Below, in pieces: positions 6,334 to 62,739 of a DNA stretch of 64,000 nucleotides (the stretch's first letter is position 1; each line of letters begins with the position of its first letter). The notes below the pieces were generated by a model. It searched no databases and was not told the origin of the DNA. It worked only from the letters and a program-made list of their open reading frames with translations. Location of the stretch: NCBI GenBank assembly GCA_018302765.1, contig JAGVZG010000001.1, positions 68,482-132,481 of the forward strand. The letters run 5' to 3'. The position numbers and the translations under genes are program-made. The stretch comes from Candidatus Woesearchaeota archaeon (GTDB taxonomy: Archaea > Nanobdellota > Nanobdellia > SCGC-AAA011-G17 > GW2011-AR18).

Positions 6334-6407
6334 TTATTTAGTTAATATACATTCTGCATAATCGAAATTTATTTTTATTAGTATTATTGTTTATATTTTG
6401 ATGCTAT

Positions 6408-15724: not shown

Positions 15725-17041
15725 ATGGCAGACGTAGTTGTTCCGGATGGATCTAGCAGAGATGACGATACAGATAAAATTATAACTATAGATATGAGTG
15801 CAATAGCAGATGATACTACGCCTTTACTTCAACAAGTTCATAATGAAAAAAGTGAACCAATGGCTATACCTAATTCTTTAAATTTAAATCTTATTCATGA
15901 TACTAAAATTCATGAGCAAATTGAAGATTTGCGTGTTAGAGACTGTCCTAGTTTAGAAAAGGTTTTGATAGGTTTGGGATATGATGATTCACACAATATT
16001 GTTAATGTATCTGTAGAAGACGCTGATCCTATTTATTATAAGGTTGGAACTGGTCTTGTATTTCAAGTAGACTTAGAAATTAATATTGGTACGACTACAA
16101 GTGGTTTTGTTGGAATTGATTATAGGACATGTGAAATTCCGAATTTGCATGTTTTGGCAAGAAATTCTTCTAATTTAAATCGTAATAATAAATTAGCGAG
16201 CTTGTATAAGAAATGGGTAGATTTTAGTTATAAACATAATTTTAGTAAAATTGTAGGAATGATGGACAGCGATGATGTCGTTAGAATATTCAGAATTTTT
16301 GATTATGATAATATTGAAAATGTTGAAATTCATAAAGTTGAATTAGTTAAAAATGAATATTATTTAGAGGCTTCTTGTTTTTATAGATCTTCTGTTGGGA
16401 GTATAAAATCAAGTTTATTTTGTGGAAAAATTCCAGCGAGTAAAATTTTATTAGACGTACGTTATTTGGAAGCAAATGTGATGAATTTGAAGAGAAAATC
16501 TTCAGCAGGAAAAATTATATCTATTGGCGCTTTTGGACTTGCTAGTTTGCTTGGCTTAGCTTATTTAGGATTGAGTACTCAGGATGTTTCTGGCTATAGT
16601 CCTGATTTATTGACTTCAAGTGGCGGTGATTTAGTAAGTCCTGCAGATATGACGCTTCATGAAGATCTTAAGTCTGAATATTTAGGTGACGCTAGCAATG
16701 GCGTTGCGGTTGATTTAGGAAGTAGTTCTAGTCATCCACCAGTTAGAATTTCTTTTATGGCACGCAGACCTAAAACTAAGGGCAGTTTATTTGTTAAGGT
16801 TGGTGGTGCTTCAGATGGAAGACATGTATTTAAGTATACTGCTGGAAAAGTAGGTTCTTATAGTACAAAAACAGGTAAGCCATCTTTTTATTCAGATGCA
16901 TTTAATGATTGGGTTGGCACAACTGCTGACAAATATGAAAAAGTTGATTCAGACGGTGTTTATAATAATAAAAATTGCAACAAACCACAGAAAGGTTTAA
17001 TGAAAGATATGCCTGCTTATGTTTGTGCGCAGCCAAAGTAA
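15725..17041 (+). CDS. membrane protein P1: acidic N-terminal domain, central TM helix, C-terminal FKY/CKPQ/AYVC domain (paralog family)
   Basis: TM segment ISIGAFGLASLLGLAYLGL. The C-terminus (VRISFMARRPKTKGSLFVKVGG...VFKY...VYNNKNCNKPQKGLMKDMPAYVCAQPK) is near-identical in key motifs to the 32512 and 33830 proteins. Confidence 0.55.
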   Translation: MADVVVPDGSSRDDDTDKIITIDMSAIADDTTPLLQQVHNEKSEPMAIPNSLNLNLIHDTKIHEQIEDLRVRDCPSLEKVLIGLGYDDSHNIVNVSVEDADPIYYKVGTGLVFQVDLEINIGTTTSGFVGIDYRTCEIPNLHVLARNSSNLNRNNKLASLYKKWVDFSYKHNFSKIVGMMDSDDVVRIFRIFDYDNIENVEIHKVELVKNEYYLEASCFYRSSVGSIKSSLFCGKIPASKILLDVRYLEANVMNLKRKSSAGKIISIGAFGLASLLGLAYLGLSTQDVSGYSPDLLTSSGGDLVSPADMTLHEDLKSEYLGDASNGVAVDLGSSSSHPPVRISFMARRPKTKGSLFVKVGGASDGRHVFKYTAGKVGSYSTKTGKPSFYSDAFNDWVGTTADKYEKVDSDGVYNNKNCNKPQKGLMKDMPAYVCAQPK

Positions 17042-19144: not shown

Positions 19145-21649
19145 ATGGGAAAGGTTTTGAACTACGTAGGTAGAGGCATAAGAAATTTTGTTAGAAGGCA
19201 CAAGAAAGGGATTTCGCTAGCTGGAGCTTTAGTATTTGGCACTTCTGCTGCTTTAACTTGTGGCATTTATAAGTATATAACTACTCCTCCAAAGGATTTT
19301 GGAAGAGTAGGGCAATACTGGCATACTTACAAAGAACGTGAAAAATTAAAAAGTATAGAAAATAATGGTGCTTTAGAAAATAAGTTGAATATAAATAGAA
19401 AAGATAATGGTTCTTCAGGCGGGGCTTATCCTGATCCTAATATAATAGGCATTTGGCCGTTAACTCCGGATAACGGAATTAAGGTAGTTACTTCCAGTGG
19501 CAGAGAAATTGTTACTAGATACGCCACTTGGAACTATGCTTCTTTGGATGAAGTACCTAAAACTGTTATAAATTCTGTTTTAAGTGTAGAAGATGCAGAC
19601 TATCTTGAGCATAAAGGAGTAAACTGGAATTTAAGGAAGATTAAGGGTTTATTTTCTCCTATTCTTGGTGGAAGACGTGTTGGTGGAAGTGGCATAACAG
19701 AACAAGTATCTAAAATGATGTTTACTGATTTTGGTAAGATAAAGCCTAGGAGATCAGCAATGCAGAAACTTCGTGAGTTGCGTTATGCTTATTATTTAGA
19801 TAGTGTGCTTGGCAAGGAACAAGTATTAGAATTTTATTTGAATACAACGCCATTAGGAGACAGTTGTTATGGCGTAAAGTGCGCTGCTATGAATTACTTT
19901 GGTAAGGAACTGAGTAATTTAACTTTTCCTGAGAGTTTGTTTTTAGCAGCAATTATTAAAAATCCAGGAGCAAATCCAAAGAATAGTGGTTTTGAATTTC
20001 AAAAACGTAGATATGACATGCTCTGTGAGTCTTTGCACGATCTTGAAAGGATTACTGAAGATCAATATAAGGAGTGCAAATCTGCAGATGTGATTAAAAT
20101 GAAGCCTGGCTTAAAAAGAAGAAGATCTCCAATAAGTGATCCTAGTGTTTTTAGTGCTTTGGCTTATGAATTAGAAAATTATGATTTTGATTTAGTTGAC
20201 AATGTTGTTCATCAGCCAAATCCAGGTTTTGGGTTTACAGTTTATACTACAATAAATGATGAGATGCATGACGCTTTAGGCCAAGCATTTGTGGATGGAC
20301 TTAAACCAAATCAAGAACAGGTTCAACTTGGCGCTGGCGCTGTGCTGAATAGCGAGGCTCAAATAGTTGCTATTTTAGGCAGGACAGACTACAGTACGCT
20401 AAGCGGAGCTTGGAGTTTTAGGAATCTTGCTGTAGCTGGGAGACGTGCTGCTGCTTCTTCAATAAAGCCTTTTGTTTATGGTTCTTGCTATGACCAAGAG
20501 AATTCAAATATTACATGCAAACCAGGCAATGTTATTTCTGATTCTAAAAAAGGATTGAGAAATCCTCCTCATAATTTTGATGGAAAGTATGAAAGAAGAA
20601 TGTCTTTAGCAGAAGCTTTAACTTCATCGAATAATGTAATAGCTTATAAAGTGTGTCGTAGAATTGGACTTAGAAATGTACTTCCAGTTATAGAAGCTGT
20701 TGGATTTGATGTTGCTGAATATGAAACAGTATTTAGGGACTGCAGAAATACTGCTTTAGGCTCAGGGCGTGTAACTCCTTTAGAACTTGCTGCTGCTTAT
20801 CGTGTTTTTGTAAAAGACGATGATGGTAATTTTTCTGCAGAATATAGAAAGCCAACAATTATTGATAGGGTTGATTTATGGTCTTTTAATTACAAAGTAA
20901 ATCTATCTGCAACAAAAGTTTTTCGTAGTGCTAACACAGTTGAATCTGTTAGAATTAGCTTAGACAGGCTTGGAAATAAAATTGTTGGCAGTAAATATGA
21001 AGCAGATATAGGTTTTAAGACTGGCACTCCAAACCCCACTACACATTGGTATTTAGGTGGAGTTCTTGACCTTGATAGTGTTTCTTATTCTATAGGTTTT
21101 CTGGCTGTGGCTAAACCTAAAGTTGTACCTTCAAAAAAAAATCCTAAGGTTTTAGTAAAAGTTTATCCTAATAAGTTGTATGCTAGTGGCGTTCTTGGTC
21201 CTGTGGTAAAAAGTTTTGTTGACGGAGTTGCTCCTAGAAAAGAAATGAAGCCTATTGATCTATATGTTCCTGCTGTTGCTAGCTTGGACAGCGTATGCAG
21301 TAATTATAATTTAGCAAGCGTTGAGCTAACTTTGCCTAGTGCTGATAATCACGATCTTGAGACACTGGGAGATATTTTAAGTGCTTGCTCTTCTTATTTT
21401 TCTGCTAATAATGAAAATGAAAAGTATGGCTTATTTTCTTACGCTGCAGGCCGTGTCTGGGAGACTTTGTACAGTAATGAAGCAACGTCTTCTCCAGGCA
21501 GCAAAACTGCTTTGCTTTACTATAGCAGTGCAATTAATTCTTATAAAACAGCTGTTCAGGAAGACAGTTTTAGTAGTTTAGCTGAAGAAAGAATTAGAGA
21601 TTTAAAGATTAAAAGAGAACAGGAAGCTAATAGAATTCATGCAGATTAA
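19145..21649 (+). CDS. class A penicillin-binding protein (bifunctional GT51 peptidoglycan glycosyltransferase / D,D-transpeptidase), N-terminal TM anchor
   Basis: GT51 motifs EDADYLEHKG, GGSGITEQ, QKLRE and VLEFYLNTTPLG...YGVKCAAMNYFGK...LTFPESLFLAAIIKNP. Transpeptidase motifs SSIKP (SxxK), SSN (SxN) and KTGT appear with canonical spacing. A TM segment lies near the N-terminus. Confidence 0.8.
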   Translation: MGKVLNYVGRGIRNFVRRHKKGISLAGALVFGTSAALTCGIYKYITTPPKDFGRVGQYWHTYKEREKLKSIENNGALENKLNINRKDNGSSGGAYPDPNIIGIWPLTPDNGIKVVTSSGREIVTRYATWNYASLDEVPKTVINSVLSVEDADYLEHKGVNWNLRKIKGLFSPILGGRRVGGSGITEQVSKMMFTDFGKIKPRRSAMQKLRELRYAYYLDSVLGKEQVLEFYLNTTPLGDSCYGVKCAAMNYFGKELSNLTFPESLFLAAIIKNPGANPKNSGFEFQKRRYDMLCESLHDLERITEDQYKECKSADVIKMKPGLKRRRSPISDPSVFSALAYELENYDFDLVDNVVHQPNPGFGFTVYTTINDEMHDALGQAFVDGLKPNQEQVQLGAGAVLNSEAQIVAILGRTDYSTLSGAWSFRNLAVAGRRAAASSIKPFVYGSCYDQENSNITCKPGNVISDSKKGLRNPPHNFDGKYERRMSLAEALTSSNNVIAYKVCRRIGLRNVLPVIEAVGFDVAEYETVFRDCRNTALGSGRVTPLELAAAYRVFVKDDDGNFSAEYRKPTIIDRVDLWSFNYKVNLSATKVFRSANTVESVRISLDRLGNKIVGSKYEADIGFKTGTPNPTTHWYLGGVLDLDSVSYSIGFLAVAKPKVVPSKKNPKVLVKVYPNKLYASGVLGPVVKSFVDGVAPRKEMKPIDLYVPAVASLDSVCSNYNLASVELTLPSADNHDLETLGDILSACSSYFSANNENEKYGLFSYAAGRVWETLYSNEATSSPGSKTALLYYSSAINSYKTAVQEDSFSSLAEERIRDLKIKREQEANRIHAD

Positions 21650-31282: not shown

Positions 31283-32281
31283 TTGTTATTTATGGTTTAT
31301 AAAGAAGCAGCAAATATGCACACTGTAGGAGATGGCGAAATACCTTATTTAATTATTAGGCTATTAAACGGTAGAGGAAGCCTTAAGAATTTAGACATTA
31401 ATGCAGTGATATGTTCTCCTTTAGAAAGTCAACATAGTGATATAATTAGAACTGGAGGACTAAATGCTATTAATTGTGTTTATTCTGATTTAAGTCCTGA
31501 TTATATAAGAATGAAAATTGCAGAGAAGGGCAACTATAAATTTAATGTTCTTTTGGTTTTTCCCGGTGGTCCTGTTGTTGATTCTTTTATGTATGATAAA
31601 GTTTCTTCTGCTTTGGAAATATCAATGGAAGAAATTCAAATGCCTATTAATCTAATTGTTTCTGATGATACAATACTTAATGATAGAGCTTTTGTTCCTA
31701 CTGATGTTGAATTTATATTGAGATACGGATATAAATATTTTGTTGGAAAAAAAGAATATGAAAAATTTGATTTAGACGTTCCTGATAAATTAAAAGCCAG
31801 ATTTGCAAACAACTTGTCTGCTGTAAGAGCTAATTTATTAACTTCTAGACATTACTTAGCTTATAATGAAGAAAAGTTCTATGAAAATTTTAAAGAATCT
31901 GTGCGTATTGCAATTGGCTCTATAGGCCTTATGACATCAATACTCAGAAGTGACGGCCACAACATACCTGACGTTAAATTACTAAGCAACTTAAAAACAT
32001 ATCTTGGCGAATTAGACTTTAGTGGGCTTATTGAATTAGTTGATGAAGGTAAATTAGACCACAATTACAATCACTTAAGAGGAAGAGCTGACGAAGTGTT
32101 AAAATATTCTAAGGTTTGTGTTAACATTTTGGAAAACTTAGTAAGATCTTATTTGAGAACTTATAGAGTTGACAGTGATATTTATGAACAATTTCTTGTT
32201 ACTAGATGTTCTGCAGAAAGACTTGTTGGGCTACAAGCATTTAGGGGAAATTCTCTGCAGCATTTAGAGTGCAGAATTTAG
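31283..32281 (+). CDS. hypothetical protein
   Basis: 332-aa ORF. Confidence 0.45.
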   Translation: MLFMVYKEAANMHTVGDGEIPYLIIRLLNGRGSLKNLDINAVICSPLESQHSDIIRTGGLNAINCVYSDLSPDYIRMKIAEKGNYKFNVLLVFPGGPVVDSFMYDKVSSALEISMEEIQMPINLIVSDDTILNDRAFVPTDVEFILRYGYKYFVGKKEYEKFDLDVPDKLKARFANNLSAVRANLLTSRHYLAYNEEKFYENFKESVRIAIGSIGLMTSILRSDGHNIPDVKLLSNLKTYLGELDFSGLIELVDEGKLDHNYNHLRGRADEVLKYSKVCVNILENLVRSYLRTYRVDSDIYEQFLVTRCSAERLVGLQAFRGNSLQHLECRI

Positions 32282-32511
32282 TAAATTTTATTATTTTGTA
32301 GTTATTTTATTTTTTGTGAGCACTTTCAGATTTATCAGAACGGCCCCAATTGTTAATATAAAATAATAAGCATTGCTGGGGAAAGATGCTGTGCGCAGGA
32401 GTTGCGGCTACAAAAAGCTTCGTTATTAAATTGCTGTTTTTGATAAATGCTGCAAAATAGAAATCTTTATAAGTATGTTACTACTTTAGGGATGTTACGG
32501 AGTTTTGAATT

Positions 32512-33774
32512 ATGTCTATTAAAAATTGGACAATAGGTGGCCTTGGTGCACTTGTTTTAGGACTTGCTGCTTCTTCTTTAACTTGTAAGCCTTGCAATGA
32601 TTTAGCAAGAAAAGTTAGTGGTAAAGAACTTCCTTTATTTGGTCGTGTTAATGGAAATACGCAAAACAAAAATCCTGCTCCTTTGCCTAAGCCTCATGTT
32701 GCAGATGACGAACCTGCTGCTGACGAAGGTAGTAGTGATGATAGTTCTGAAAAAACTACAGAATCTGCAGAAGTAGAATCAAAAAGTTCTGGTTCATCAG
32801 ACGCAGATTCTTCTTCTAAAAAACCTAGTTTTGTTAAAGTTGGCAATGTTGGAAATAAAGACGTATTCAAATATGACTTAGGTAAAGTTAGGGATGGAGA
32901 GGGTTCATTTTTGTACGCTGTTAGATTTAATAAATGGGACGACAGTTCTGAAGGAGACACCTATAAAAAAGTTGGTCAAAATGATGTTTACAATAATAAA
33001 AATTGTAAGCCACAGAAAAATTTTATGAAAGGTATGCCTGCTTATGTTTGTGTTCTTCCTAATAATGGGGAAAGTGGAGACACTCCTGGAGATGCTGGTG
33101 ATCGTGCTCCAAATAATGTTGAAGTGAGGTCAGATTCTGGTGCAGTTGCAACAACAGATCCTACATCTACTCGAACTTTGCACGTAGCAATAGAACGTCC
33201 AAGTTCTCCAGATCTTGGTTCAGATTCTGGCGTAGGCAGTTCTGGAACAATTGAATTAGTTGTTAATCCTTATGCTAATGCTACTGAGACAGCAACTCCT
33301 GCTGAGAGTGGCGACTCTGAAGATGATAGTTCTGGCGATACTTACGATGAAGATGCTGCTGGCACTTCTGGTCGTCGTGATTATACTGACCCTTTTGGCG
33401 TTGTTTTGTCTGGCGACCCAGTTGCAGCACAATATGGCACTGCAATAATAAGTGGTTTTAATGAAGCTTATCAAGATAAATATAGGACTAAGAACAGCGG
33501 TAAATGCTTAAGTGTAAATATTGGTTTAGAATACGCTGTTGGAGCAAAAGGCGAACTTGTTAGTATAAGGGGATATTTTTGTGGGGACTTAGAATCATGC
33601 GCTGGAAGAGGAAAACTTTATTTGGATCAACCTCATGATTCTAGTTTAGATGAAAATTTTACTTTTGGAAGAGAGCTGATTAAGGTAATAAGAGTAGAGA
33701 ATTCTAAAAGGCCACTTGTTTCTGTCAAAAGAGGAAACTACGTAGGTTCTATAATTGAATTTGGTTGTGAATGA
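32512..33774 (+). CDS. secreted protein P3: signal/TM N-terminus, acidic Ser/Asp/Glu-rich low-complexity linkers, FKY/CKPQ/AYVC domain (paralog family)
   Basis: N-terminal hydrophobic segment GGLGALVLGLAASSL. The KKPSFVKVGNVG...VFKY...VYNNKNCKPQKNFMKGMPAYVCVLP domain matches the C-terminus of the 15725 protein. Confidence 0.55.
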   Translation: MSIKNWTIGGLGALVLGLAASSLTCKPCNDLARKVSGKELPLFGRVNGNTQNKNPAPLPKPHVADDEPAADEGSSDDSSEKTTESAEVESKSSGSSDADSSSKKPSFVKVGNVGNKDVFKYDLGKVRDGEGSFLYAVRFNKWDDSSEGDTYKKVGQNDVYNNKNCKPQKNFMKGMPAYVCVLPNNGESGDTPGDAGDRAPNNVEVRSDSGAVATTDPTSTRTLHVAIERPSSPDLGSDSGVGSSGTIELVVNPYANATETATPAESGDSEDDSSGDTYDEDAAGTSGRRDYTDPFGVVLSGDPVAAQYGTAIISGFNEAYQDKYRTKNSGKCLSVNIGLEYAVGAKGELVSIRGYFCGDLESCAGRGKLYLDQPHDSSLDENFTFGRELIKVIRVENSKRPLVSVKRGNYVGSIIEFGCE

Positions 33775-33829
33775 TAAGTTTTAAATAGTAGTAATCACTC
33801 TTGTGTGATAACACCATTGGGAGGAGTAA

Positions 33830-36061
33830 ATGTCTTTAAGATCACTACTATATGCAGCGCTTTTTTTATTTATTGGCAGTGCTGAAACTAACGTTGATGC
33901 TGCTAGAAAACCTAGGTCAGAGAGAACAGCGTTTTCTAAAATAAAAGAAAAGGGTAATGTACATGTTTTTAAGTACAGAGTATCTAGTGGTGAAAAAGAC
34001 AGTGATATTGCTTTGAAATTTGGGATTTGGGACAGAGGCCAAGGCAGTTTGTATGAAACAGTTACTTCTGCAAGCGTTACTGGCGACCCTTCTTGTAAAC
34101 CTCAACTTCTTAAAAAAGAAAACATTGCTTATGTTTGCGCTAATAGAAAACTACGTGTAGTGCCTAATGATTTCAAAGGGCCTTCTATTGAATTTATAGA
34201 TTTGTTTGATACTCCTTATTGGGGTTCTTTGTTGAAGGTTACAAAGAGTTTTGGTCCTGATGGATTTCCAGTTCACACTGTTGATTTAAATATAACTGCA
34301 AGAGAAAAAATAAATGTTAATTCTAGGAGAAGTGCTTATGCTTATAGAGGTTCACATGATTTGGAAAGTATAACTATTTTTGCTTTTGATAGAGATGCTG
34401 AGAGAGATCTTACTTTATGTCCAGAAAAAGTCTATGAGTTTAAGTATGACGAGCTAGTTACTTTGCCTAATTGCATTACTGATGGTTCTTATGGTATTTT
34501 GGCAGCTTTAGAACATTTTGCTAAGTTTGAGTATGGCGTTTTAGATAAATATACAGAAACTGTTCCGCCAGGATTAGCAGGTTTTAAGGCTGGAAGATTA
34601 GTTAAACCATCTGCAGAACTTGCACCAGCTCCGATAATATTTATAACTCCTCCACCTTCTCCAACACCTTTAGTTCCAGTTCCAGTTTCAACAATACCAG
34701 CAGCTCCTAGTGGTTCAAGTGCTTCATCTTCTGCTACTACAACAGTTCATTCTCCACCTATTAGTTTCAAAGCTAGAAGACCAGGACCTGGTTCAGCTGT
34801 ACCTTCAGTTGGTTCAGGAATTTCAACAATACCAGCAGCTCCTAGTGGTTCAAGTGCTTCATCTTCTGCTACTACAACAGTTCCTTCTCCACCTATTAGT
34901 TTCAAAGCTAGAAGACCAGGACCTGGTTCAGCTGTACCTTCAGTTCCAGCTTCGGTTTCTGTTTTTAGCGGTTGGACTGATACCGCTTTAGGTTCAAGCA
35001 CTGAATCTTGTAGTGCCTGCGCATCAACAAACTCAGTACAATTTGTAGGAGGAGTTAGAGTTCGTGGCTTGTTAAGTAACGTTGAATTTAATAGCAACAC
35101 AGGTTTAGAATCTTCTTATGGTTTTATTGGTGGAGATTTACGTTTAGTTTTGGGTGGGGGTGTTGGGAATAATTATTTAGCAGTTTCTGCAGCTGCTGGA
35201 TTAAGAAAAGTTGGCGTAGATGGATTATTAAGTAAAAGGCTTTTGGACTTTGGTGACAATAGTAATACAACTCATGTAGAAGTTGGACCGTCTGGAAGAT
35301 TACATTTAGCTAAAGGAAATAAATTGGAAGTTGATGCTGTACTTAATCCTGCTTTTTTATATAGTAGAGAGCGTGTAAATAATTTTGGCGGAAATAGTTT
35401 CTTAGAGGAAGGTAAAGGGCTTAGGATAAATGGCAGTGTAGCTTTACCTCGTCTCTTATTTAATGGAGAAAAATTTGCTTGGGGTTTATACGGTGATTTT
35501 GATTTAGAGGCATTGAGACTAAAGCAAACTAATCTGAATAGTGGACAGGAAACTTTGTTTGGCTGGAGAACTAGAGGATCTTATGGCGGAGGCAGTTCTT
35601 TTAGTTTTGATGCTTTAGGAACAGACGTTAATATTGGTGTTGGATTTAGGACGCACCATAATTATAATTTAGCTTTAAGAAGTAATTTATCTCCTAATGA
35701 TTTAAAGTGGTTACAATACAGACAACAGAGAGGTTTTATACTTGATTTAAGTGATCTTACTGTAGGTGATTCTAGAGGGTATACTTTAGACCCAGCTTTA
35801 ACTATTGAAAATGATAGGTTTTATTTAAGACTTGAAGGACAAGTATCTATTTATGGAAATGTAAGGAGAGGGGGATTTTGCTTAAATACTGGTGGCAAAA
35901 CCAGAGGTGGTTTATACATTGGTAGTGGGTTTTGTTACAGTGATATTACTCAAGAATCTGAAGCAGGCAGTGCCAGAAGCAGGGGAGGATCAGTTAATAT
36001 TACTTTAGGAAGTCCCAGTATTAAATTAAATCCAAGAATTGATCAGGCAGACATAAGATAA
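33830..36061 (+). CDS. secreted protein P4: signal peptide, divergent FKY/CKPQ/AYVC domain, Pro/Ser-rich region with tandem ISFKARRP-containing repeat, Gly/aromatic-rich beta-strand-like C-terminal domain
   Basis: Signal peptide LLYAALFLFIGSA. Motifs VFKY...SCKPQ...IAYVCA are present. SPPISFKARRPGPGSAVPSV appears twice. The C-terminal ~350 aa shows alternating hydrophobic/polar residues rich in G, N, R, Y and F. Confidence 0.55.
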   Translation: MSLRSLLYAALFLFIGSAETNVDAARKPRSERTAFSKIKEKGNVHVFKYRVSSGEKDSDIALKFGIWDRGQGSLYETVTSASVTGDPSCKPQLLKKENIAYVCANRKLRVVPNDFKGPSIEFIDLFDTPYWGSLLKVTKSFGPDGFPVHTVDLNITAREKINVNSRRSAYAYRGSHDLESITIFAFDRDAERDLTLCPEKVYEFKYDELVTLPNCITDGSYGILAALEHFAKFEYGVLDKYTETVPPGLAGFKAGRLVKPSAELAPAPIIFITPPPSPTPLVPVPVSTIPAAPSGSSASSSATTTVHSPPISFKARRPGPGSAVPSVGSGISTIPAAPSGSSASSSATTTVPSPPISFKARRPGPGSAVPSVPASVSVFSGWTDTALGSSTESCSACASTNSVQFVGGVRVRGLLSNVEFNSNTGLESSYGFIGGDLRLVLGGGVGNNYLAVSAAAGLRKVGVDGLLSKRLLDFGDNSNTTHVEVGPSGRLHLAKGNKLEVDAVLNPAFLYSRERVNNFGGNSFLEEGKGLRINGSVALPRLLFNGEKFAWGLYGDFDLEALRLKQTNLNSGQETLFGWRTRGSYGGGSSFSFDALGTDVNIGVGFRTHHNYNLALRSNLSPNDLKWLQYRQQRGFILDLSDLTVGDSRGYTLDPALTIENDRFYLRLEGQVSIYGNVRRGGFCLNTGGKTRGGLYIGSGFCYSDITQESEAGSARSRGGSVNITLGSPSIKLNPRIDQADIR
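34688..34945 (+). repeat. near-perfect tandem duplication: two 123-bp units separated by 12 bp (period 135 bp) inside the P4 coding sequence
   Basis: Units 34688-34810 and 34823-34945 differ at about one base (cattct vs ccttct). Each encodes STIPAAPSGSSASSSATTTV[H/P]SPPISFKARRPGPGSAVPSV. Confidence 0.85.
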
Positions 36062-36091
36062 ATTTTTATAGCTTTAATTTTTTAAAAAATC

Positions 36092-36565
36092 ATGATATTT
36101 TCTATTATAGTTATTTTGGGATGCTTTTTTGGATATTTAATAGCTAGGCTTACAAAGGAGGAATTGAAGAAAGGCTTGGTTTATTTTAAAATATTAGAAC
36201 TTTTTATTTTGGCTTTGTTGCCTTTTATATTTTTATATCATTCTTTTAATATTTTCTTTTTTATTTTAGGAATGTTATTTGGATTTGTTTTTAGATACGA
36301 ATATTTTTATTTTGGTGTTGGTTTTTTTTCTAGTTTTCTGAATAAAGACTTAAATTTTTTAACTTCTTCTTTGATTTTTATTTACGGTCTGCCTTATGGA
36401 AGCGTATTATTTTTTGTTAAGAAATTTAGAATGTTGTTTTATAATGTTGTTTTATTTTTTATACCATTTTTAATTTATTATCTGAATTATGATTTTTTGT
36501 CTTTCTCTGCTGGGGGCTTGTTAGTATTGTTTTTCATGAATTTTTATAGGCTTTTTAATAAATGA
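36092..36565 (+). CDS. Phe-rich small integral membrane protein
   Basis: 157 aa with 4-5 hydrophobic segments; immediately downstream of P4. Confidence 0.4.
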   Translation: MIFSIIVILGCFFGYLIARLTKEELKKGLVYFKILELFILALLPFIFLYHSFNIFFFILGMLFGFVFRYEYFYFGVGFFSSFLNKDLNFLTSSLIFIYGLPYGSVLFFVKKFRMLFYNVVLFFIPFLIYYLNYDFLSFSAGGLLVLFFMNFYRLFNK

Positions 36566-36632
36566 ATATACTTTATGAAATTTATATTGAATTTACAAAA
36601 TTTTTATAAGTTAAATATCTAAGAATTATTAA

Positions 36633-37091
36633 ATGGGATTTAAAGCAAGAGTTATTTTGCCTGAAAATAGACCGCCTGGCAGGGCTTATATTCATTACCT
36701 TGGAATGAACGAAGTTTATGGCTCTGTTAAATCAGCTTATAATTATTTGTTTTTTGCTCTTTCAAAGCATGGTGATAAATTATTGACTTTTGATTTCTTT
36801 TTGGCTAATGTTTGGGGAGATATTAAAGAGGACAAGAAGGTTATAGATTTTTTTGGCTATAAAGATATTAAAGTATGGGGCAATAGTAATCCAAGTGCAA
36901 TTCCATTTCAAGTTGTAAATGGGGATTATTTTCCAGATGGAATTATCACTTGCGAAGATACTCTTATTGCTTTTGGTAGAGAAGGTGAATTTAGGAGAAA
37001 AACTAATAATCTAGATGAGTTTATGAGAAATTATCCAAGTGATATTGGCGGTTTAGAAAAAGGAATAATTACTATTTATCCTAGAAAATAG
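36633..37091 (+). CDS. hypothetical protein
   Basis: 152-aa ORF. Confidence 0.4.
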   Translation: MGFKARVILPENRPPGRAYIHYLGMNEVYGSVKSAYNYLFFALSKHGDKLLTFDFFLANVWGDIKEDKKVIDFFGYKDIKVWGNSNPSAIPFQVVNGDYFPDGIITCEDTLIAFGREGEFRRKTNNLDEFMRNYPSDIGGLEKGIITIYPRK

Positions 37092-37127
37092 CACTAATCT
37101 TATAAACTTTCTTGAAGTTTTATTTTT

Positions 37128-37871
37128 ATGTTATACTTAATTGGACTAGGATTGGGAGATGAGAAGGATTTAACTCTTAATTCTCTGGACGTTATTAAAA
37201 ACTGCAGTTTTGTTTACTTAGAAAATTATACTTCTTTTTTAGTATTTGATGTTAAGAAATTAGAATCTTTAATTGGCAAAAATGTTATTTTAGCAGAAAG
37301 GGAGTTTGTTGAAACCAGTGATGAAATGATTAACAATGCTTTAAATTCTGATGTTGCATTTTTAGTAAAAGGTGATGTTTTTTCCGCAACAACGCATGTG
37401 GACTTGTTTTTGAGAGCAGTTCATCATGGCATTAGGTGTAGTGTTTTGCATAATTCTTCCGTGCTTACAGCTGTAAGTGATACTGGATTAAGCTTATATA
37501 AATTTGGAAGAGTTGTTTCTATACCTTTTGATTATAATAATGTTTACAGTTCTTATGAAACATTTTTAAGCAACGGAGATTCACATACACTTTTCTTACT
37601 AGACTTAAAACCCAGTGAGAATAAATTCATGAACTTTAAAGACGGATTTAATTATTTATTAAATAAAAGTGGAGAAAGAAATGACAGTAGAATTGGCCTT
37701 GACACTATGTGTGTTGTTTGCGCAGCATTAGGAACTGATAAGGCTGTTATAAAATATGGCAAGATCTGTGACTTATTAAATTTTAATATTGATGCTTACC
37801 CGCAGTGCATTATAATTCCTGGCAAGACGCATTTTGTTGAAGAAGAAGTTCTTAATTTATTTAGACTATAA
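37128..37871 (+). CDS. dph5: diphthine synthase
   Basis: MLYLIGLGLGDEKDLT at the N-terminus, and a tetrapyrrole-methylase fold pattern characteristic of Dph5; 247 aa. Confidence 0.8.
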   Translation: MLYLIGLGLGDEKDLTLNSLDVIKNCSFVYLENYTSFLVFDVKKLESLIGKNVILAEREFVETSDEMINNALNSDVAFLVKGDVFSATTHVDLFLRAVHHGIRCSVLHNSSVLTAVSDTGLSLYKFGRVVSIPFDYNNVYSSYETFLSNGDSHTLFLLDLKPSENKFMNFKDGFNYLLNKSGERNDSRIGLDTMCVVCAALGTDKAVIKYGKICDLLNFNIDAYPQCIIIPGKTHFVEEEVLNLFRL

Positions 37872-44611: not shown

Positions 44612-45247
44612 ATGGCATTTAAACTAATTTGTTTTGATATGGATGGCGTTATTTTTAAAGATATTAATTTTTGGATTGAGCTACATAAAAAGTTTGGAAC
44701 ACTAGAACAAGGTAAAATATTGACTGAAAAATATCTCCATTCAGATTATGCTAAATTAGTTGAGGAAGTAGTTATTAAGTTGTGGAAGGGGAAAAACGCT
44801 GAACTATATTATGATTTAGTTAATTCTTTGGAATATTTGCCTGGTGTTAAAGAAGTTTTTAATTATGTGAAGAACAATTATTATTTTACTGCAATTATTA
44901 GTGGTTCAAGTATAGATGTTGCTAGAAGAGTTCAAAGAGATTTTGGTATAGATCATATATATGCTAATGAATTAGTTATTAAAAATGGAAAAGTAAGTGG
45001 TGAATTTGTTTGGCCAATAGGTGCAGGAAAAGAGAAAAAGGCACAAATTATTATGAATTTATGTAATGATTTGAATATACTTACAAAAGAAGCTATTTAT
45101 ATTGGAGATAGTGATAATGATATAGAAGCATTTAAAGAAGTAGGTTTATCTATTGCGTTTAATTCTGATTCTAAAGAACTGAAAAAATTTGCAACTTATG
45201 TTGTTGATAGTAATAATTTATCTGATATATTGAAGTATTTACCTTAA
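44612..45247 (+). CDS. HAD-superfamily hydrolase (phosphoserine phosphatase-like, subfamily IB)
   Basis: Motif I FDMDGV and motif IV GDSDND. Confidence 0.7.
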   Translation: MAFKLICFDMDGVIFKDINFWIELHKKFGTLEQGKILTEKYLHSDYAKLVEEVVIKLWKGKNAELYYDLVNSLEYLPGVKEVFNYVKNNYYFTAIISGSSIDVARRVQRDFGIDHIYANELVIKNGKVSGEFVWPIGAGKEKKAQIIMNLCNDLNILTKEAIYIGDSDNDIEAFKEVGLSIAFNSDSKELKKFATYVVDSNNLSDILKYLP

Positions 45248-45317
45248 ACTCTAACTTCAATTTTTCTTCTATTGTCTAGGTCTTTAAGAAGCTCTTGTCC
45301 TAATTTGGATTTTTTAT
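45244..45317. repeat. 74-bp perfect direct repeat, copy 1 of 2 (flanks the hicBA cassette; duplicates the 3' end of the PIN-PhoH-KH ATPase gene)
   Basis: Identical to 45805-45878. Confidence 0.85.
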
Positions 45318-45559
45318 AAATATTTTGCAAATTCTTCTTCATCTATTTTTGCTAGTTTTAATACAGATTTAAGAGTTCCTATTTTTATTTCTTTATGCAT
45401 TGGAACAACAGTACCAACTTTTCCTTCAGGTGTTTCTTTAGATAATCTTACATGGCTTCCAGTTCTGCCACTTATTTGGAATCCAAGTTTATTACAAAGA
45501 ATTTTAATTGCTTCCTGTCCTGAAACTTTTCTTAGCTGTGGCATGAATATCAACCTCAA
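45314..45559 (-). CDS. hicA: HicA-family mRNA interferase toxin
   Basis: SGRTGSHVRL motif (GSH) and a dsRBD-like fold; 81 aa (the start may be the internal Met). Confidence 0.7.
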   Translation of the reverse strand: MRLIFMPQLRKVSGQEAIKILCNKLGFQISGRTGSHVRLSKETPEGKVGTVVPMHKEIKIGTLKSVLKLAKIDEEEFAKYL

Positions 45560-45804: not shown

Positions 45805-45878
45805 TTAAACTCTAACTTCAATTTTTCTTCTATTGTCTAGGTCTTTAAGAAGCTCTTGTCCTAATTTGGATTTTTTAT
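45805..45878. repeat. 74-bp direct repeat, copy 2 of 2 (native 3' end of the ATPase gene)
   Basis: Identical to 45244-45317. Confidence 0.85.
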
Positions 45879-47628
45879 TTATTTTTAATTCTGCTTTATT
45901 TCCTATAGTATATGTTAACAAAAAATGGCCATCAACGTAAACTTCTGCTATTTTTCCTGCATGTTCTTGGGGAAGTTTGAATACTAATGCTTTTTTTGAT
46001 TCTTCAACTTTATAATTTATAGGAATTTTATCAGACTCTTCATTTTCTATAACTTCTTTTAGTTCTTTTACTGTTAGACCAAAACCTAACTTTTTTTCTA
46101 TTTGAGAAATGTTCTTGCCTTCTTTGCCTATGAATTTAGCTATTTCATCTTCTGGAAGATATACTTCTGCTCTGTTATTATTTATTATTTTTACTTTGAC
46201 ATCATTAACATAAGCTCTAAGTTCTCTTTCTAGTTGTTTTGCTGCTAATGCTTTTGTAGGATCATGCAAGAATTCTTCTTGTACAGGAATTACTACTGTT
46301 TCTTCACCATAGCTGTATATTTCAAATTCTAGTTTGTTTGTTATATAATCACGAACTTCAATTACAGGTCTTGCAAGGTCTGCTTCTGTCATCCCAGAAG
46401 GGACTTTTACTATCATTTGTACTGTAAGTATTCTTGAGACATTTCCTTTTTCTATAAATATTAAAGTATCTAGAACACTTGGAATCATACCAACTTCTAA
46501 TCTTCCAATAAATCTTTGTATTGCATCTATGGGGGTAGCTGCATGTAATACTCCTAAAACATTTGATCCACCTAATCTTAAATCTGTGAATAATATAAAA
46601 TCTGGAGTATCTCTCATTTCATCAAATATAATATAATCAGGCCTTGATAAAAACAAAATGTCATGGATTTCTTCTGAGCTTGCTAGATTTTTACTGTACT
46701 GCGTAACGTCTTTGCTTAGAATTAAACTTCTAGGACTTTCTATTGTTTTTGTTATAAAACTATTAGTTGCATAATATTCTGCTAGAGATTGTGCGAAGGT
46801 AGATTTTCCAGATCCCGTAGTGCCAGCAATTATAACACCTCTTGCTTTTGTCTTTACTCTTTCTGCTATGTTAGTTGGTAAATTATAATCATCAATTTTT
46901 AAGACTTTAATCGGTCTTACAGCAGTTATTTCCCAGCCGTCAGAAACTGGTGTTTTAGTTATTACTATTCTGTAATTTTTGTATTGAACTATTGTTGATC
47001 CAGGTCTTGAAATTTCAATAAATGCATCAGACTCTATCCTTGATCTTTCTACTATTTCTTTTGCCATTTCTTGTACTTCTTGTTGAGTTAGAATATTTGT
47101 GGCTACGTCTAATAATTTCCATTCTCCTGGCTTTCCTTTTTTAGCCCTTGGAGGGCAACCTTCTCTCAGATGCACAGACATTGTTTCATAATCAAAATAT
47201 TGTTCAATTTCTAAAGCTTCTGTTAATTGCCTATGTGGAGAATATATTACTTCTACGCCTAATGCTTTTGCTGATTCTGCTTGTATTCTATCTGCTGTAA
47301 CCAGAATAGCTCCTTCATTGTAGGCAATATCCCTTATTATAGCATCTATCTCTCCACCTTGTTTTGCATAAGCAATTTGATAGAGGTTTGGACGTTCTCC
47401 TGTAAACATTAGTGTTATTTTTCCTTCTTTGAATAGCTTTTGTAAGTTTTGAACTTCTTCTAAACCTAGAAATCCAATCTCTTGGCCTGTGTTAGCCTGG
47501 TGTTCTAGTTCAGCCATTACAGCTTTAGGCACTATAATTTTACCTGAAATTTTCTTAGATTTGATAAACTGAGACACTAGGCGTTCTACAACTACAGATG
47601 TATCAACAACATATGTTTTTTCTTCCAT
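45805..47628 (-). CDS. PIN-domain + PhoH-like ATPase + KH-domain protein (archaeal PilT/PhoH2-like)
   Basis: N-terminal PIN (VVDTSVV), Walker A AGTTGSGKST, and a C-terminal KH GxxG (IGKEGKNI); 607 aa. Confidence 0.7.
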   Translation of the reverse strand: MEEKTYVVDTSVVVERLVSQFIKSKKISGKIIVPKAVMAELEHQANTGQEIGFLGLEEVQNLQKLFKEGKITLMFTGERPNLYQIAYAKQGGEIDAIIRDIAYNEGAILVTADRIQAESAKALGVEVIYSPHRQLTEALEIEQYFDYETMSVHLREGCPPRAKKGKPGEWKLLDVATNILTQQEVQEMAKEIVERSRIESDAFIEISRPGSTIVQYKNYRIVITKTPVSDGWEITAVRPIKVLKIDDYNLPTNIAERVKTKARGVIIAGTTGSGKSTFAQSLAEYYATNSFITKTIESPRSLILSKDVTQYSKNLASSEEIHDILFLSRPDYIIFDEMRDTPDFILFTDLRLGGSNVLGVLHAATPIDAIQRFIGRLEVGMIPSVLDTLIFIEKGNVSRILTVQMIVKVPSGMTEADLARPVIEVRDYITNKLEFEIYSYGEETVVIPVQEEFLHDPTKALAAKQLERELRAYVNDVKVKIINNNRAEVYLPEDEIAKFIGKEGKNISQIEKKLGFGLTVKELKEVIENEESDKIPINYKVEESKKALVFKLPQEHAGKIAEVYVDGHFLLTYTIGNKAELKINKKSKLGQELLKDLDNRRKIEVRV

Positions 47629-61230: not shown

Positions 61231-61347
61231 GATTTTGTATTGCAATTGTTTATTGAATTGAGTTTTCGCTCTAACTACCAAGTGGTTGCTATGACTGGCT
61301 ATAGAAATCTTTTTATATTTAAGCATTTACAGTATTTCGAGGGTTTT

Positions 61348-62739
61348 ATGATGAAGGGGAAATTAACTATACTGTTGCCTATTTTGTTTGTTTTATTGTC
61401 TAGTTTTGTATTTGCTGCTCCTATAGCTCCTACTAATTTTCAAGCCAGAGCAGTCAGTATAAATACTATTAATTTAACTTGGAACTACAATTTTGGCAGT
61501 GAAGACCGTTATTATATATACCAATCTACAGACGGTACAAATTTTGCATATAAAACTACAGTTCTTTTTAGTGCTTTTGCCATGAGTACTTTGATTGGAA
61601 GTTTATCTCCTAATACTAGGTATTGGTATTCTATTAGGTCTTCAGACGGATTTCAAAATTCCACTGCTGTTTTTGCATTTCCGGTTTATACTTTGGCTAG
61701 TACACCTACATCTGTGGCAGCCGCAACCTTAAACAAAACCTCTGTTTTTGTTTCGTGGAATGGAGATGGAAATGATTATTATGTAACAGCAACTACAGGT
61801 TTAACTTCAAAGGCTTCAGGTTTTGTGACAGGCAAAAATTATACTTTTACAGATTTAAGTTGTTCTTCTACTTACGGTTTTCGTGTTTTAGGTAGAAATG
61901 GAGATGGACGTAATTCAAGTTTTTCGTTCCCTGAATTTTCTGCAACAACAAGTTCTTGTTTTACTCCTCCTCCTGCAGACGCTGTTAGTCCGCGAGTTAC
62001 TGGGGTTGTTGATAAATCTATAGCTGTTAGTTGGGACGATGGTGGCGGAGGAGAAATCCAATATAAATTAGAGCAGTCTACAAATGGAACAGATTTTGTT
62101 CAGATTGCTACAGTTCCTGCAACAACTTTACAATTTGCTTTTAGTTCTTTGGTGCCAAACACCCCTTATTGGTTTAAGATTAAAGCTACAAATGGCGAAA
62201 CTACTACTGACGGAGTTATAGCGATTGTAGCTCCTACTCATACAAGAGCAGAACCTCCAGGGTTAACTCAAGGTACTGCAACAGAGACTGAAATTCCTTT
62301 GTTTATAGATCCAGGAAATAATACTGATTATACATTATATAATATTAGAGTAAATAATGGCGGCTTTTTAGGTTCTTGGCAAAATCTTTCTTCTTGGGGC
62401 AATATAGTTGCTAGAAATCTAATACCTAATACTGTTTATGTTTTTGATGTTTACGCTGTAAATGAAGGTGGGTATATAGCACAGGGCTCAACAGTTGTTG
62501 AAAGTACACTTCCTACAACTACTCCATTGGCTCCTTATAATTTAGCTGTTAGTGACGTAGTAAATGATTCAGTAACATTACAATGGTCTCCAAGTTTTGG
62601 AACAGAAACAAATTTCTTGATAGAGCAAGACAGCGGAGCAGGATTTGTTCAGGTAGGTTCAGTTCCATCAACATCAACATCATACCAGGCTACAGGTCTT
62701 CTTCAGCATATACAAATACAGAACAGGCAACTACATTAG
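61348..62739 (+). CDS. fibronectin type III repeat surface protein (N-terminal part, up to the frameshift)
   Basis: Signal peptide MMKGKLTILLPILFVLLSSFVFAA and a GAGGG Shine-Dalgarno. Repeated ~95-aa FN3-like units (PTNF..L.W; Y.Y.V.A.N..G). Confidence 0.6.
   Translation: MMKGKLTILLPILFVLLSSFVFAAPIAPTNFQARAVSINTINLTWNYNFGSEDRYYIYQSTDGTNFAYKTTVLFSAFAMSTLIGSLSPNTRYWYSIRSSDGFQNSTAVFAFPVYTLASTPTSVAAATLNKTSVFVSWNGDGNDYYVTATTGLTSKASGFVTGKNYTFTDLSCSSTYGFRVLGRNGDGRNSSFSFPEFSATTSSCFTPPPADAVSPRVTGVVDKSIAVSWDDGGGGEIQYKLEQSTNGTDFVQIATVPATTLQFAFSSLVPNTPYWFKIKATNGETTTDGVIAIVAPTHTRAEPPGLTQGTATETEIPLFIDPGNNTDYTLYNIRVNNGGFLGSWQNLSSWGNIVARNLIPNTVYVFDVYAVNEGGYIAQGSTVVESTLPTTTPLAPYNLAVSDVVNDSVTLQWSPSFGTETNFLIEQDSGAGFVQVGSVPSTSTSYQATGLLQHIQIQNRQLH

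What the first reader, a model, noticed from the sequence alone, without database searches (positions are those of the whole stretch)
34688..34945. Near-identical 123-bp tandem duplication inside P4 encoding the ISFKARRP motif
Two 123-bp units (34688-34810 and 34823-34945, 12-bp spacer) differ at a single position (His vs Pro codon). Each encodes STIPAAPSGSSASSSATTTV[H/P]SPPISFKARRPGPGSAVPSV. Near-perfect identity implies a very recent duplication or an actively varying repeat, i.e. contingency-like length variation in a surface protein. The repeated motif is the same ISF[KM]ARRP element that precedes the conserved domain in the 15725 protein, so it may be a recognition, processing or attachment site.
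Basis: seen in the sequence. Interest (0 to 1): 0.55.

Follow-up and report, generated by a model that had tools for sequence, protein, structure and literature searches.

The report
Duplicated tether segment in archaeal surface protein
A 135-base stretch is duplicated head to tail, in frame, inside the floppy tether of a secreted protein of a tiny groundwater archaeon; the duplication is real but ordinary, while the protein it sits in, which ends in a barrel resembling bacterial outer-membrane pores, is the more unusual thing.

Summary
Window 34688-34810 and 34823-34945 are identical except at 34749 (A/C, His/Pro). The period is 135 nt, and this is the only strong tandem repeat in the 64 kb.

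It lies in frame in ORF 33830-36061 (743 aa) of a Candidatus Woesearchaeota archaeon. It falls inside a Pro/Ser/Thr/Ala-rich segment that AlphaFold2 leaves unstructured (residues 246-401). That segment joins a signal-peptide-led N-terminal region to a confidently predicted barrel of about 14 strands. By fold, the barrel matches only bacterial outer-membrane barrels.

The two-copy form recurs in independent assemblies and carries a unique 12-nt spacer, so it is not an expansion artefact.

Other assemblies of the same near-clonal Rifle aquifer population show exact one-copy forms, with either His or Pro, and two-copy His/His and Pro/Pro forms. All six one-copy contigs I could inspect are MEGAHIT assemblies. 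Real recombination between the copies and assembler collapse therefore cannot be separated without reads.

The unit is not a contingency locus and not part of a diversity-generating retroelement.

The ISFKARRP motif is shared with a paralog through different codons, and a similar SFKKR element sits in the linker of a 37%-identical ortholog. It is probably a conserved linker element of unknown role.

The duplication is an ordinary in-frame repeat in a surface-protein linker. The barrel is the notable by-product.

The parts
33830..36061 (+). Host gene ('P4'), 743 aa. An identical protein is deposited as MBS3151885.1, hypothetical protein J4230_00585, Candidatus Woesearchaeota archaeon.
   Evidence: ORF list and cluster look-up. 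No Pfam, NCBIfam or PDB sequence match.
33830..33901 (+). Predicted Sec-type signal peptide, MSLRSLLYAALFLFIGSAETNVDA (residues 1-24).
   Evidence: Read from the sequence. All 11 family members start with a basic residue, a hydrophobic stretch and an A-x-A-like site. The cleavage site is inferred.
33902..34150 (+). Small N-terminal domain with two conserved Cys (HVFKY...CKPQ...AYVC), shared with two paralogs in the window.
   Evidence: BLASTP E 7e-6 against the 15725 protein and 2e-8 against the 32512 protein. A profile built from the three copies finds only these three ORFs in the window.
34187..34564 (+). Beta-rich middle ('passenger') domain, residues about 120-245. It is conserved across the family (DRD and LP.CITDGSY motifs).
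   Evidence: Family alignment A1. AlphaFold2 pLDDT 58-79.
34565..35032 (+). Pro/Ser/Thr/Ala/Gly-rich tether predicted to be disordered (residues 246-401); it contains the duplication.
   Evidence: pLDDT below 50 over 246-282 and 310-401. P+S+T+A+G makes up 0.67-0.80 of the residues and sequence entropy is low. This is the most length-variable region of the family alignment.
34580..34597 (+). Motif-like element GFKAGR at the start of the tether. It aligns with YSFKKR of ortholog P0014.
   Evidence: Pairwise alignment A2.
34686..34810 (+). Repeat copy 1 (the His allele in this window).
34749..34749 (+). The only position that differs between the copies (A here, C at 34884). Both positions vary A/C among public contigs.
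34760..34783 (+). ISFKARRP motif, copy 1.
34811..34822 (+). Unique 12-nt spacer GGTTCAGGAATT (GSGI). It is absent from all one-copy contigs and is not a copy of either flank.
34821..34945 (+). Repeat copy 2 (the Pro allele in this window).
34895..34918 (+). ISFKARRP motif, copy 2.
35036..36010 (+). C-terminal beta-barrel of about 14 strands (residues 403-727) with an outer-membrane-protein-like fold.
   Evidence: AlphaFold2 on the domain alone gives pLDDT 89.3 and pTM 0.84. All of the top 50 Foldseek PDB hits are bacterial outer-membrane barrels: FadL E 5e-8, CymA TM 0.50-0.57, OmpG TM 0.55. Part of each strand shows alternating hydrophobic residues.
36011..36058 (+). Conserved C-terminal tail ...PRIDQADIR. 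The final Arg is invariant in all 11 family members.
16748..16771 (+). ISFMARRP in paralog 15725-17041, immediately before its copy of the shared domain. It is encoded by different codons: TCT versus AGT for Ser, CGC versus AGA for Arg.

Best explanation
The feature is a genuine in-frame head-to-tail duplication of 45 codons (135 nt). It lies inside an intrinsically disordered, Pro/Ser/Thr/Ala-rich tether of a secreted envelope protein of a Woesearchaeota (DPANN) archaeon.

The protein reads: signal peptide, small disulfide-type N-domain, beta-rich middle domain, tether, then a C-terminal barrel of about 14 strands.

The duplication is the kind of product made by replication slippage or unequal recombination in a structurally unconstrained linker. 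Its direct effect is to lengthen the tether by 45 residues. That is roughly 110 instead of 65 low-complexity residues between the last conserved strand of the middle domain and the conserved VF..W.D segment before the barrel. It also doubles a short basic element (H/P-S-P-P-I-S-F-K-A-R-R-P).

The two copies then form a substrate for homologous deletion and gene conversion. That would yield exactly the one-copy His, one-copy Pro, His/His and Pro/Pro forms seen in other assemblies. An assembler mishandling the repeat would yield the same forms.

Shown: the repeat, its reading frame, its recurrence in independent assemblies, the predicted disorder of the host segment, the barrel prediction, and lineage specificity. 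Inferred: the slippage or recombination origin, any effect on reach or spacing, possible O-glycosylation of the Ser/Thr tract, and any role of the motif.
For: - The repeat and its frame are established.
- The identical two-copy His/Pro sequence, unique spacer included, is found in at least ten contigs. Four were inspected (three JGI assemblies and one SPAdes-style NODE contig), and ANAN16 scaffolds carry Pro/Pro and His/His two-copy forms.
- The one-copy contigs are exact 135-nt deletions, 34686-34820 or 34750-34884. These are the two products expected from a crossover left or right of the SNP.
- The repeat lies in the pLDDT<50, low-complexity segment between folded parts.
- The same segment is the most variable in length and content across 11 family members.
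- Syntenic orthologs in L013 and L014 have no tandem repeat there, so the event is lineage-specific.
- It is the only strong tandem repeat in the 64 kb.
Against: - No reads were available, so the mechanism of origin and the reality of the variant forms are not shown.
- The spacer GSGI is not explained by a simple duplication of a contiguous 135-nt ancestral segment. Neither flank matches it (4 of 12 nt against the left flank, my count).
- The shared motif hints that the duplicated peptide may be more than a passive spacer.
- The disorder call rests on an AlphaFold2 model built from only 11 sequences.
Confidence: 0.75

Rival explanations
1. The locus is truly unstable in the living population. 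One-copy and two-copy alleles and His/Pro conversion variants coexist because the two 125-nt copies recombine often, giving real tether-length variation.
For: - Five of the six possible states are seen on an otherwise almost invariant background, with 0-2 SNPs in about 8 kb.
- In a His/Pro genome the longest exact repeat is only 63 nt. Collapse at k=127 or k=141 is therefore not a trivially expected assembler outcome (coordinates; assembler behaviour is my own knowledge).
- The population is demonstrably not perfectly clonal: SNPs at 32727 and 33334, and indels at 37120-37140.
Against: - All six inspected one-copy contigs are MEGAHIT assemblies (names k127_/k141_), while the JGI contigs, the SPAdes-style NODE contig and the ANAN16 scaffolds have two copies.
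- L002, L006 and L012 share the rare 32727T and a break at 37123, yet show one-copy Pro, one-copy His and His/His respectively. L002 and L006 are contigs of the same length, 17409 nt. That pattern suggests different assemblies of similar data disagreeing with each other.
- The protein-level assemblies from SRR3989338 (the collection's 'SRC' source; that these are Plass assemblies is my own inference) can jump between identical repeats.
Confidence: 0.4
2. The population is uniformly two-copy His/Pro. The one-copy, His/His and Pro/Pro forms are products of short-read assemblers (repeat collapse, bubble popping, consensus mis-phasing).
For: - The association with one assembler, and the lack of linkage to SNP 32727.
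- His/Pro is by far the commonest state: at least 10 contigs plus the window.
- Low-quality scaffolds of the same strain carry gaps and frameshifts (L015). A chimeric contig joins this gene to a PheRS beta gene (P0003). This organism is therefore often poorly assembled.
Against: - Some one-copy contigs are 17-29 kb long, so coverage was not negligible.
- An exact repeat of at most 63 nt should be resolved at large k.
- His/His and Pro/Pro occur on 132-kb scaffolds from apparently well-covered samples.
Confidence: 0.45
3. The duplicated peptide is a functional short linear motif (a processing, attachment or partner-binding site), and doubling it is selected for. The tether length is incidental.
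For: - ISF[KM]ARRP (7 of 8 residues) is shared with paralog 15725-17041, exactly at the boundary of the shared domain, and is encoded by different codons.
- A match of at least 7/8 anywhere in the window's ORFs arose in 2 of 60 shuffles.
- Local alignment of the paralog's linker to the tandem region gives p about 0.003, and the ortholog P0014's linker (SFKKRTVAPGSA...) gives p about 0.001, against composition-preserving shuffles.
- P4 itself has GFKAGR at the orthologous position.
Against: - The motif is not visible in the nine more distant family members, where only a hydrophobic-x-F-x strand is kept.
- No protease, sortase-like or glycosylation signal is known to me with this sequence.
- Low-complexity linkers inflate alignment scores.
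- The duplication also copies 30 residues of plain Ser/Thr/Ala/Pro sequence.
Confidence: 0.25
4. The two-copy form is an assembly expansion artefact.
For: None beyond the general difficulty of assembling repeats.
Against: The same two-copy sequence, with a unique 12-nt spacer that no assembler could invent, was recovered from assemblies in several different naming styles and from several samples.
Confidence: 0.03
5. The pair is a template/variable repeat of a diversity-generating retroelement, or a phase-variable contingency repeat.
For: DPANN genomes are known to carry diversity-generating retroelements (my own knowledge). The single difference is A versus C.
Against: - No reverse transcriptase was found among 40 of the window's 69 ORFs of at least 100 aa scanned against Pfam, which included nearly all those of 200 aa or more.
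- Only one of many adenines differs.
- Both copies are adjacent and coding within one ORF, and they lie in a disordered linker rather than a C-type lectin fold.
- The unit is 135 nt, a multiple of three, with two copies, so there is no frame switching.
Confidence: 0.02

Closest known systems
Long, nearly identical in-frame tandem repeats in cell-surface proteins (for example alpha C/Rib proteins of group B streptococci, Mycoplasma Vlp, yeast FLO/ALS adhesins). Named from my own knowledge.
   Same: The repeat is head to tail and in frame, nearly identical at the DNA level, and lies in a secreted protein. Recombination between units changes length without destroying the protein. One-copy and two-copy forms are seen among assemblies.
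   Different: There are only two copies. The unit is a disordered low-complexity tether rather than a folded repeat domain. The organism is an uncultured DPANN archaeon. Real copy-number variation is not proven.
Pro/Thr/Ser-rich interdomain linkers and membrane-proximal O-glycosylated stalks (for example glycoside hydrolase linkers, and the Thr-rich stalk of haloarchaeal S-layer glycoprotein). Named from my own knowledge.
   Same: Composition (P+S+T+A+G at 0.7-0.8), predicted disorder, position between a folded extracellular part and the membrane anchor, and high length variability among homologs.
   Different: Glycosylation was not tested. The tether carries an embedded basic motif (FKARRP) that typical PT linkers lack.
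Type Va autotransporters of diderm bacteria
   Same: The order of parts is signal peptide, passenger, linker, C-terminal beta-barrel. The EstA autotransporter is among the top fold matches.
   Different: The barrel is predicted with about 14 strands and is closer to FadL, CymA and OmpG than to the 12-strand autotransporter barrel. There is no Pfam autotransporter hit. The linker is long, Pro-rich and predicted disordered, not a lumen-spanning helix. The host is an archaeon with no known outer membrane or BAM machinery.
Simple-sequence contingency loci (Haemophilus, Neisseria)
   Same: Repeat-mediated variation in a surface protein gene.
   Different: Those loci use 1-9-nt units in many copies and switch expression by frameshift. 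Here the unit is 135 nt, there are two copies, and the repeat is always in frame.

Membership tests
In-frame intragenic tandem repeat (VNTR-type) of a surface protein | Head-to-tail copies with a unit length that is a multiple of three, inside one ORF | tested here: met
   Period 135 nt, both copies in frame in ORF 33830-36061.
In-frame intragenic tandem repeat (VNTR-type) of a surface protein | The host protein is exported or surface-located | tested here: met
   An N-terminal signal-peptide-like sequence is present in all 11 family members, together with a conserved Cys pair and a predicted C-terminal membrane barrel. This is prediction only.
In-frame intragenic tandem repeat (VNTR-type) of a surface protein | Copy number differs between isolates or cells | tested here: inconclusive
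   One-copy (7 contigs) and two-copy (at least 12 contigs) forms exist in assemblies of one population. All inspected one-copy contigs are MEGAHIT assemblies and no reads were available.
Simple-sequence contingency (phase-variation) locus | Short unit (1-9 nt) in many copies, where a change in copy number shifts the frame or the promoter spacing | tested here: not met
   The unit is 135 nt with 1.9 copies, and the one-copy and two-copy forms both keep the frame (698 and 743 aa).
Diversity-generating retroelement (template/variable repeat pair) | A reverse transcriptase gene nearby, with mismatches confined to many template adenines | tested here: not met
   No reverse transcriptase domain was found among 40 ORFs scanned, which included nearly all those of 200 aa or more. 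There is a single A/C difference.
Diversity-generating retroelement (template/variable repeat pair) | The variable repeat lies in a C-type-lectin or Ig-like ligand-binding fold at the 3' end of the target gene | tested here: not met
   Both copies lie mid-gene in a segment with pLDDT below 50.
Type Va autotransporter | C-terminal 12-strand barrel recognised by the Pfam Autotransporter model | tested here: not met
   No Pfam hit in any of the 11 members. The model has about 14 strands.
Type Va autotransporter | N-terminal Sec signal, passenger domain, and a linker leading into a C-terminal barrel | tested here: met
   Architecture. This is a resemblance in the order of parts only.
Bacterial outer-membrane 14-strand barrels (FadL/OmpG/CymA-like fold) | Closed antiparallel barrel of about 14 strands with a lipid-facing hydrophobic belt | tested here: inconclusive
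   The fold prediction is confident (pLDDT 89, pTM 0.84) and all of the top 50 PDB matches are outer-membrane barrels at TM about 0.5. Alternating hydrophobic faces are seen in part of each strand.
Bacterial outer-membrane 14-strand barrels (FadL/OmpG/CymA-like fold) | Resides in an outer membrane, inserted by BAM, with a C-terminal aromatic beta-signal | tested here: not met
   The organism is archaeal: archaeal-type EF-1alpha and the NCBI label. The protein ends in ...DIR with an invariant Arg, not an aromatic residue. Localisation is not testable here.

The most novel reading that the evidence does not exclude
The host protein would belong to an undescribed family of Sec-exported, outer-membrane-protein-like beta-barrel proteins. 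The family is conserved in synteny in Woesearchaeota-type DPANN archaea, organisms not known to have an outer membrane. The barrel would anchor the protein in a second membrane, or in the membrane of a host cell. The Ser/Thr/Pro tether would set how far the N-terminal domains reach. The 45-residue duplication, and its loss by recombination, would then be a real, population-level way of tuning that reach. The conserved FK(A/K)RR element would be a processing or docking site.
Probability: 0.2. Interest if true: 0.8.

Novelty: new member of a known kind. Interest (0 to 1): 0.33.

Why it matters
On its own, the duplication is a routine example of how disordered linkers of surface proteins grow and shrink.

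It matters in two modest ways.

First, it is a concrete, testable locus for microdiversity. A single 150-nt read can span the one-copy junction. The many public Rifle aquifer read sets could therefore show whether an almost clonal DPANN population really carries tether-length variants, or whether assemblers create them. That is also a caution for anyone using assembled proteins to infer repeat variation.

Second, it draws attention to its host protein. This is a conserved, syntenic, unannotated family with a confidently predicted outer-membrane-type beta-barrel in an archaeon. If that holds, it bears on how episymbiotic DPANN cells build their envelope or contact their hosts.

Tried and rejected
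1. The word-indexed protein searches with the family alignment A1 and the N-domain alignment A3 returned only the query's own cluster or a fragment of it. I could therefore not collect more orthologs to test motif conservation.
2. A genome-contig scan with alignment A2 found 91 pattern matches but no relative. The A1 alignment was too divergent to scan with.
3. A metagenome-contig scan for a 38-nt exact piece of the repeat found nothing. No three-copy or other variants could be sought there.
4. Pfam, NCBIfam and PDB sequence searches of P4, its paralogs and all 11 family members found no family.
5. A third, degenerate repeat unit upstream (residues 237-286) or downstream of the duplication is not significant: p 0.29 and 0.27 against shuffles.
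6. P0015 is an 888-aa protein made of 14 repeats, which matched the repeat region at E 5e-20. It is an unrelated repetitive sequence with a chance resemblance (TVHSAPISHWKHKRRG), and I rejected it as a relative.
7. P0003 looks like a relative but is a chimeric contig product: PheRS beta fused to 72 residues of P4.
8. The diversity-generating-retroelement and contingency-locus readings were rejected (see the membership tests).
9. Linkage of the repeat state to neighbouring SNPs was examined and none was found.
10. Literature searches for DPANN or Woesearchaeota beta-barrels or surface tandem repeats found nothing relevant.
Full report
**Observation**

Window 34688-34810 and 34823-34945 are 123-nt copies that differ only at 34749 (A versus C; CAT His versus CCT Pro). 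Identity extends two bases further left. Tandem Repeats Finder therefore reports 34686-34945 with period 135, 1.9 copies, 99% matches and score 513. It is the only tandem repeat scoring at least 80 in the 64 kb. The copies are separated by a unique 12-nt spacer, GGTTCAGGAATT. Both lie in frame in ORF 33830-36061 (743 aa), at residues 287-327 and 332-372.

**Organism and gene**

An identical protein is deposited as MBS3151885.1, a hypothetical protein of a Candidatus Woesearchaeota archaeon. The window encodes an archaeal-type EF-1alpha whose best PDB matches are deposited as elongation factor 1-alpha (I recognise the top entries as archaeal); bacterial EF-Tu scores far lower. It also encodes RtcB, a DRG-type GTPase and a TP_methylase-family protein (diphthine synthase by my reading), alongside some bacterial-type genes. 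G+C content is about 30%. The protein has no Pfam, NCBIfam or PDB sequence match.

**Architecture of the host protein**

An exhaustive HMMER search of 1.8 billion representatives found 13 hits. The informative ones are:
- a 37%-identical ortholog, P0014;
- nine distant homologs, P0016 to P0024, at 25-31% identity.

Their alignment (A1) shows four parts: a signal peptide, a beta-rich middle domain, a region of highly variable length and content, and a conserved C-terminal domain of about 330 residues ending in an invariant Arg.

AlphaFold2 on this alignment leaves residues 246-401 at pLDDT below 50. It predicts residues 403-727 as long antiparallel strands at pLDDT of about 90. Modelled alone, the C-terminal domain reaches mean pLDDT 89.3 and pTM 0.84, with about 14 strands. 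In both Foldseek searches, all of the top 50 PDB matches are bacterial outer-membrane barrels: FadL at E 5e-8, CymA at TM 0.50-0.57, OmpG at 0.55, and the EstA autotransporter. Part of each strand alternates hydrophobic and polar residues.

The repeat therefore sits in a disordered tether, with P+S+T+A+G making up 0.7-0.8 of the residues. That tether links the extracellular N-terminal domains to a barrel-type anchor.

The first 80 or so mature residues form a small two-Cys domain. The same domain occurs in the proteins at 15725-17041 and 32512-33774.

**Is the duplication real, and does it vary?**

The 90%-identity cluster of this protein contains otherwise identical sequences in five repeat states:
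- two copies His/Pro (the window, P0004 on at least 10 contigs, P0013);
- two copies Pro/Pro (P0001, P0009);
- two copies His/His (P0008);
- one copy Pro (P0005 on 5 contigs, P0012);
- one copy His (P0006 on 2 contigs, P0002).

At the DNA level, 12 retrieved contigs are 99.97-100% identical to the window outside the repeat. All come from Rifle aquifer groundwater assemblies. The one-copy forms are exact 135-nt deletions, 34686-34820 (leaving Pro) or 34750-34884 (leaving His).

The two-copy form is not an artefact, for two reasons. It was recovered from assemblies with several different naming styles and from several samples. It also contains a spacer that is unique sequence.

The spacer is absent from the one-copy forms and is not a copy of either flank. 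The one-copy forms are therefore derived from the two-copy form, either by recombination in cells or by collapse in software. The reverse direction is not possible by simple duplication.

Whether the variants exist in cells cannot be settled here.

Evidence for an artefact:
- All six inspected one-copy contigs carry MEGAHIT-style names (k127_/k141_). The JGI contigs, the SPAdes-style NODE contig and the ANAN16 scaffolds show two copies.
- The repeat state is not linked to SNP 32727.
- L002, L006 and L012 share 32727T and a break at 37123, yet show three different repeat states. L002 and L006 are both 17409 nt long.

Evidence for real variation:
- In a His/Pro genome the longest exact repeat is 63 nt. 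Collapse at k of 127 or more is therefore not automatic (this rests on my own knowledge of assemblers).
- Some one-copy contigs are 17-29 kb long.
- The His/His and Pro/Pro forms are on 132-kb scaffolds.

I put real polymorphism at roughly 40-50%. A single 150-nt read can span the one-copy junction, so the test is simple.

**Lineage specificity**

The ortholog P0014 lies in the same gene neighbourhood, next to the 157-aa membrane protein, a 152-165-aa protein, the TP_methylase-family gene and AsnC. It has a shorter Pro/Ser/Ala linker and no tandem repeat. The same holds for the syntenic homolog in L014. Linkers of the other homologs differ freely, carrying Lys/Pro/Glu-rich periodic stretches, Asp-rich stretches or extra inserted sequence. 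This region tolerates insertions and duplications, which fits a spacer role.

**The motif**

ISF[KM]ARRP occurs only in the two repeat copies and at 16748 in the 15725-17041 protein. There it directly precedes the shared domain. The DNA differs in most codons, including TCT versus AGT for Ser and CGC versus AGA for Arg. This is therefore old, protein-level similarity, not recent DNA exchange.

- A match of at least 7/8 to the 41-aa unit arose in 2 of 60 residue shuffles of all the window's ORFs.
- The similarity extends to H-(S)-P-P-..-I-S-F, with local alignment p of about 0.003.
- The ortholog's linker aligns with the tandem region in a shifted register (SFKKRTVAPGSA... with SFKARRPGPGSA...), with p of about 0.001.
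- P4 itself has GFKAGR at the orthologous position.
- His matches the paralog, so His may be the older state.

The element is thus probably a conserved feature of these linkers. The nine distant homologs keep only a hydrophobic-x-Phe-x strand there. Nothing here tests processing or attachment.

**Alternatives rejected**

- Contingency locus: the unit is 135 nt, there are two copies, and the repeat always stays in frame.
- Diversity-generating retroelement: no reverse transcriptase was found among 40 of the window's ORFs scanned against Pfam, which included nearly all of the larger ones. There is a single A/C difference, and both copies lie inside a disordered coding segment.
- Folded repeat domain: the low complexity and pLDDT below 50 argue against it.
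- Expansion artefact: excluded as explained above.

**Verdict**

This is a real, lineage-specific, in-frame 45-codon duplication in the disordered tether of a surface protein. It is ordinary in kind, a new member of the known class of intragenic repeats in surface-protein linkers. Whether it varies in the population is an open and easily testable question.

The more surprising result is a by-product. The host protein belongs to an unannotated, syntenically conserved DPANN family with a confidently predicted outer-membrane-type beta-barrel. Four literature searches found no description of it.

Noticed in passing
window 35036-36010 (residues 403-727 of ORF 33830-36061): The C-terminal domain is predicted with high confidence (pLDDT 89, pTM 0.84) as a beta-barrel of about 14 strands. 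All of its top 50 PDB fold matches are bacterial outer-membrane barrels (FadL, CymA, OmpG, EstA). This is in an archaeal (Woesearchaeota) genome, with no sequence-level family hit and an invariant C-terminal Arg instead of an aromatic end.
   Followed up: partly
window 31283-37091; loci L013, L014, L016, L017: The gene order is conserved in several DPANN contigs: two unannotated proteins, then the barrel protein, then a polytopic membrane protein of about 157 aa (36092-36565). It often lies near TyrRS/TrpRS and the TP_methylase-family gene. This suggests an envelope module of unknown function.
   Followed up: partly
window 37120-37140: This is a second variable spot among otherwise identical contigs, just upstream of or at the start of the TP_methylase gene. 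L007 lacks 21 nt. L012 has a scaffold gap plus about 100 nt of extra sequence. Contigs L002 and L006 end exactly at 37123.
   Followed up: partly
window 32727 and 33334 (inside ORF 32512-33774): Two population SNPs occur in the paralogous surface protein: A>T in L002, L006 and L012, and G>T in L006. These were the only substitutions seen outside the repeat across about 8 kb in the twelve clean contigs (L001-L012).
   Followed up: no
window 15725-17041, 32512-33774, 33830-34150: Three proteins share a domain of about 80 aa with two Cys (HVFKY...NKNCKPQ...MPAYVC) and no Pfam match. The copies in 15725-17041 and 32512-33774 are 79-89% identical at the DNA level over about 100 nt (repeat families D3 and D7). 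This suggests recent exchange between those two.
   Followed up: partly
window 45244-45325 and 45805-45886: An 82-nt direct repeat at 96% identity, 561 nt apart, at the 3' end of the PIN-domain/secretion-type ATPase gene (45805-47628, minus strand). It may be a remnant of a partial gene duplication.
   Followed up: no
window 4723-7349: A 536-aa protein with a ThyX domain lies next to a 5-hydroxymethyl-dU DNA kinase family protein (PF18723). The pairing is typical of thymidine hypermodification systems of phages, here in an archaeal contig.
   Followed up: no
window 19145-21649: A class A penicillin-binding protein (transglycosylase plus transpeptidase domains) and a bacterial-type AspRS with a GAD domain (57376-59139) lie in an otherwise archaeal genome. 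They are probably acquired from bacteria.
   Followed up: no
window 61689-63808: Diverged internal repeats of 102-113 nt (66-86% identity) lie in and after the fibronectin-type-III protein gene (61240-62739). These are probably repeated fn3 modules in adjacent genes.
   Followed up: no
proteins P0003 and P0015 (public databases): P0003 (JGI, 2.2-kb contig) is a chimera of PheRS beta and 72 residues of this barrel protein. P0015 is an unrelated 888-aa repetitive protein whose unit (TVHSAPISHWKHKRRG) mimics the repeat motif and scores E 5e-20. Both are traps for automated homology calls.
   Followed up: yes
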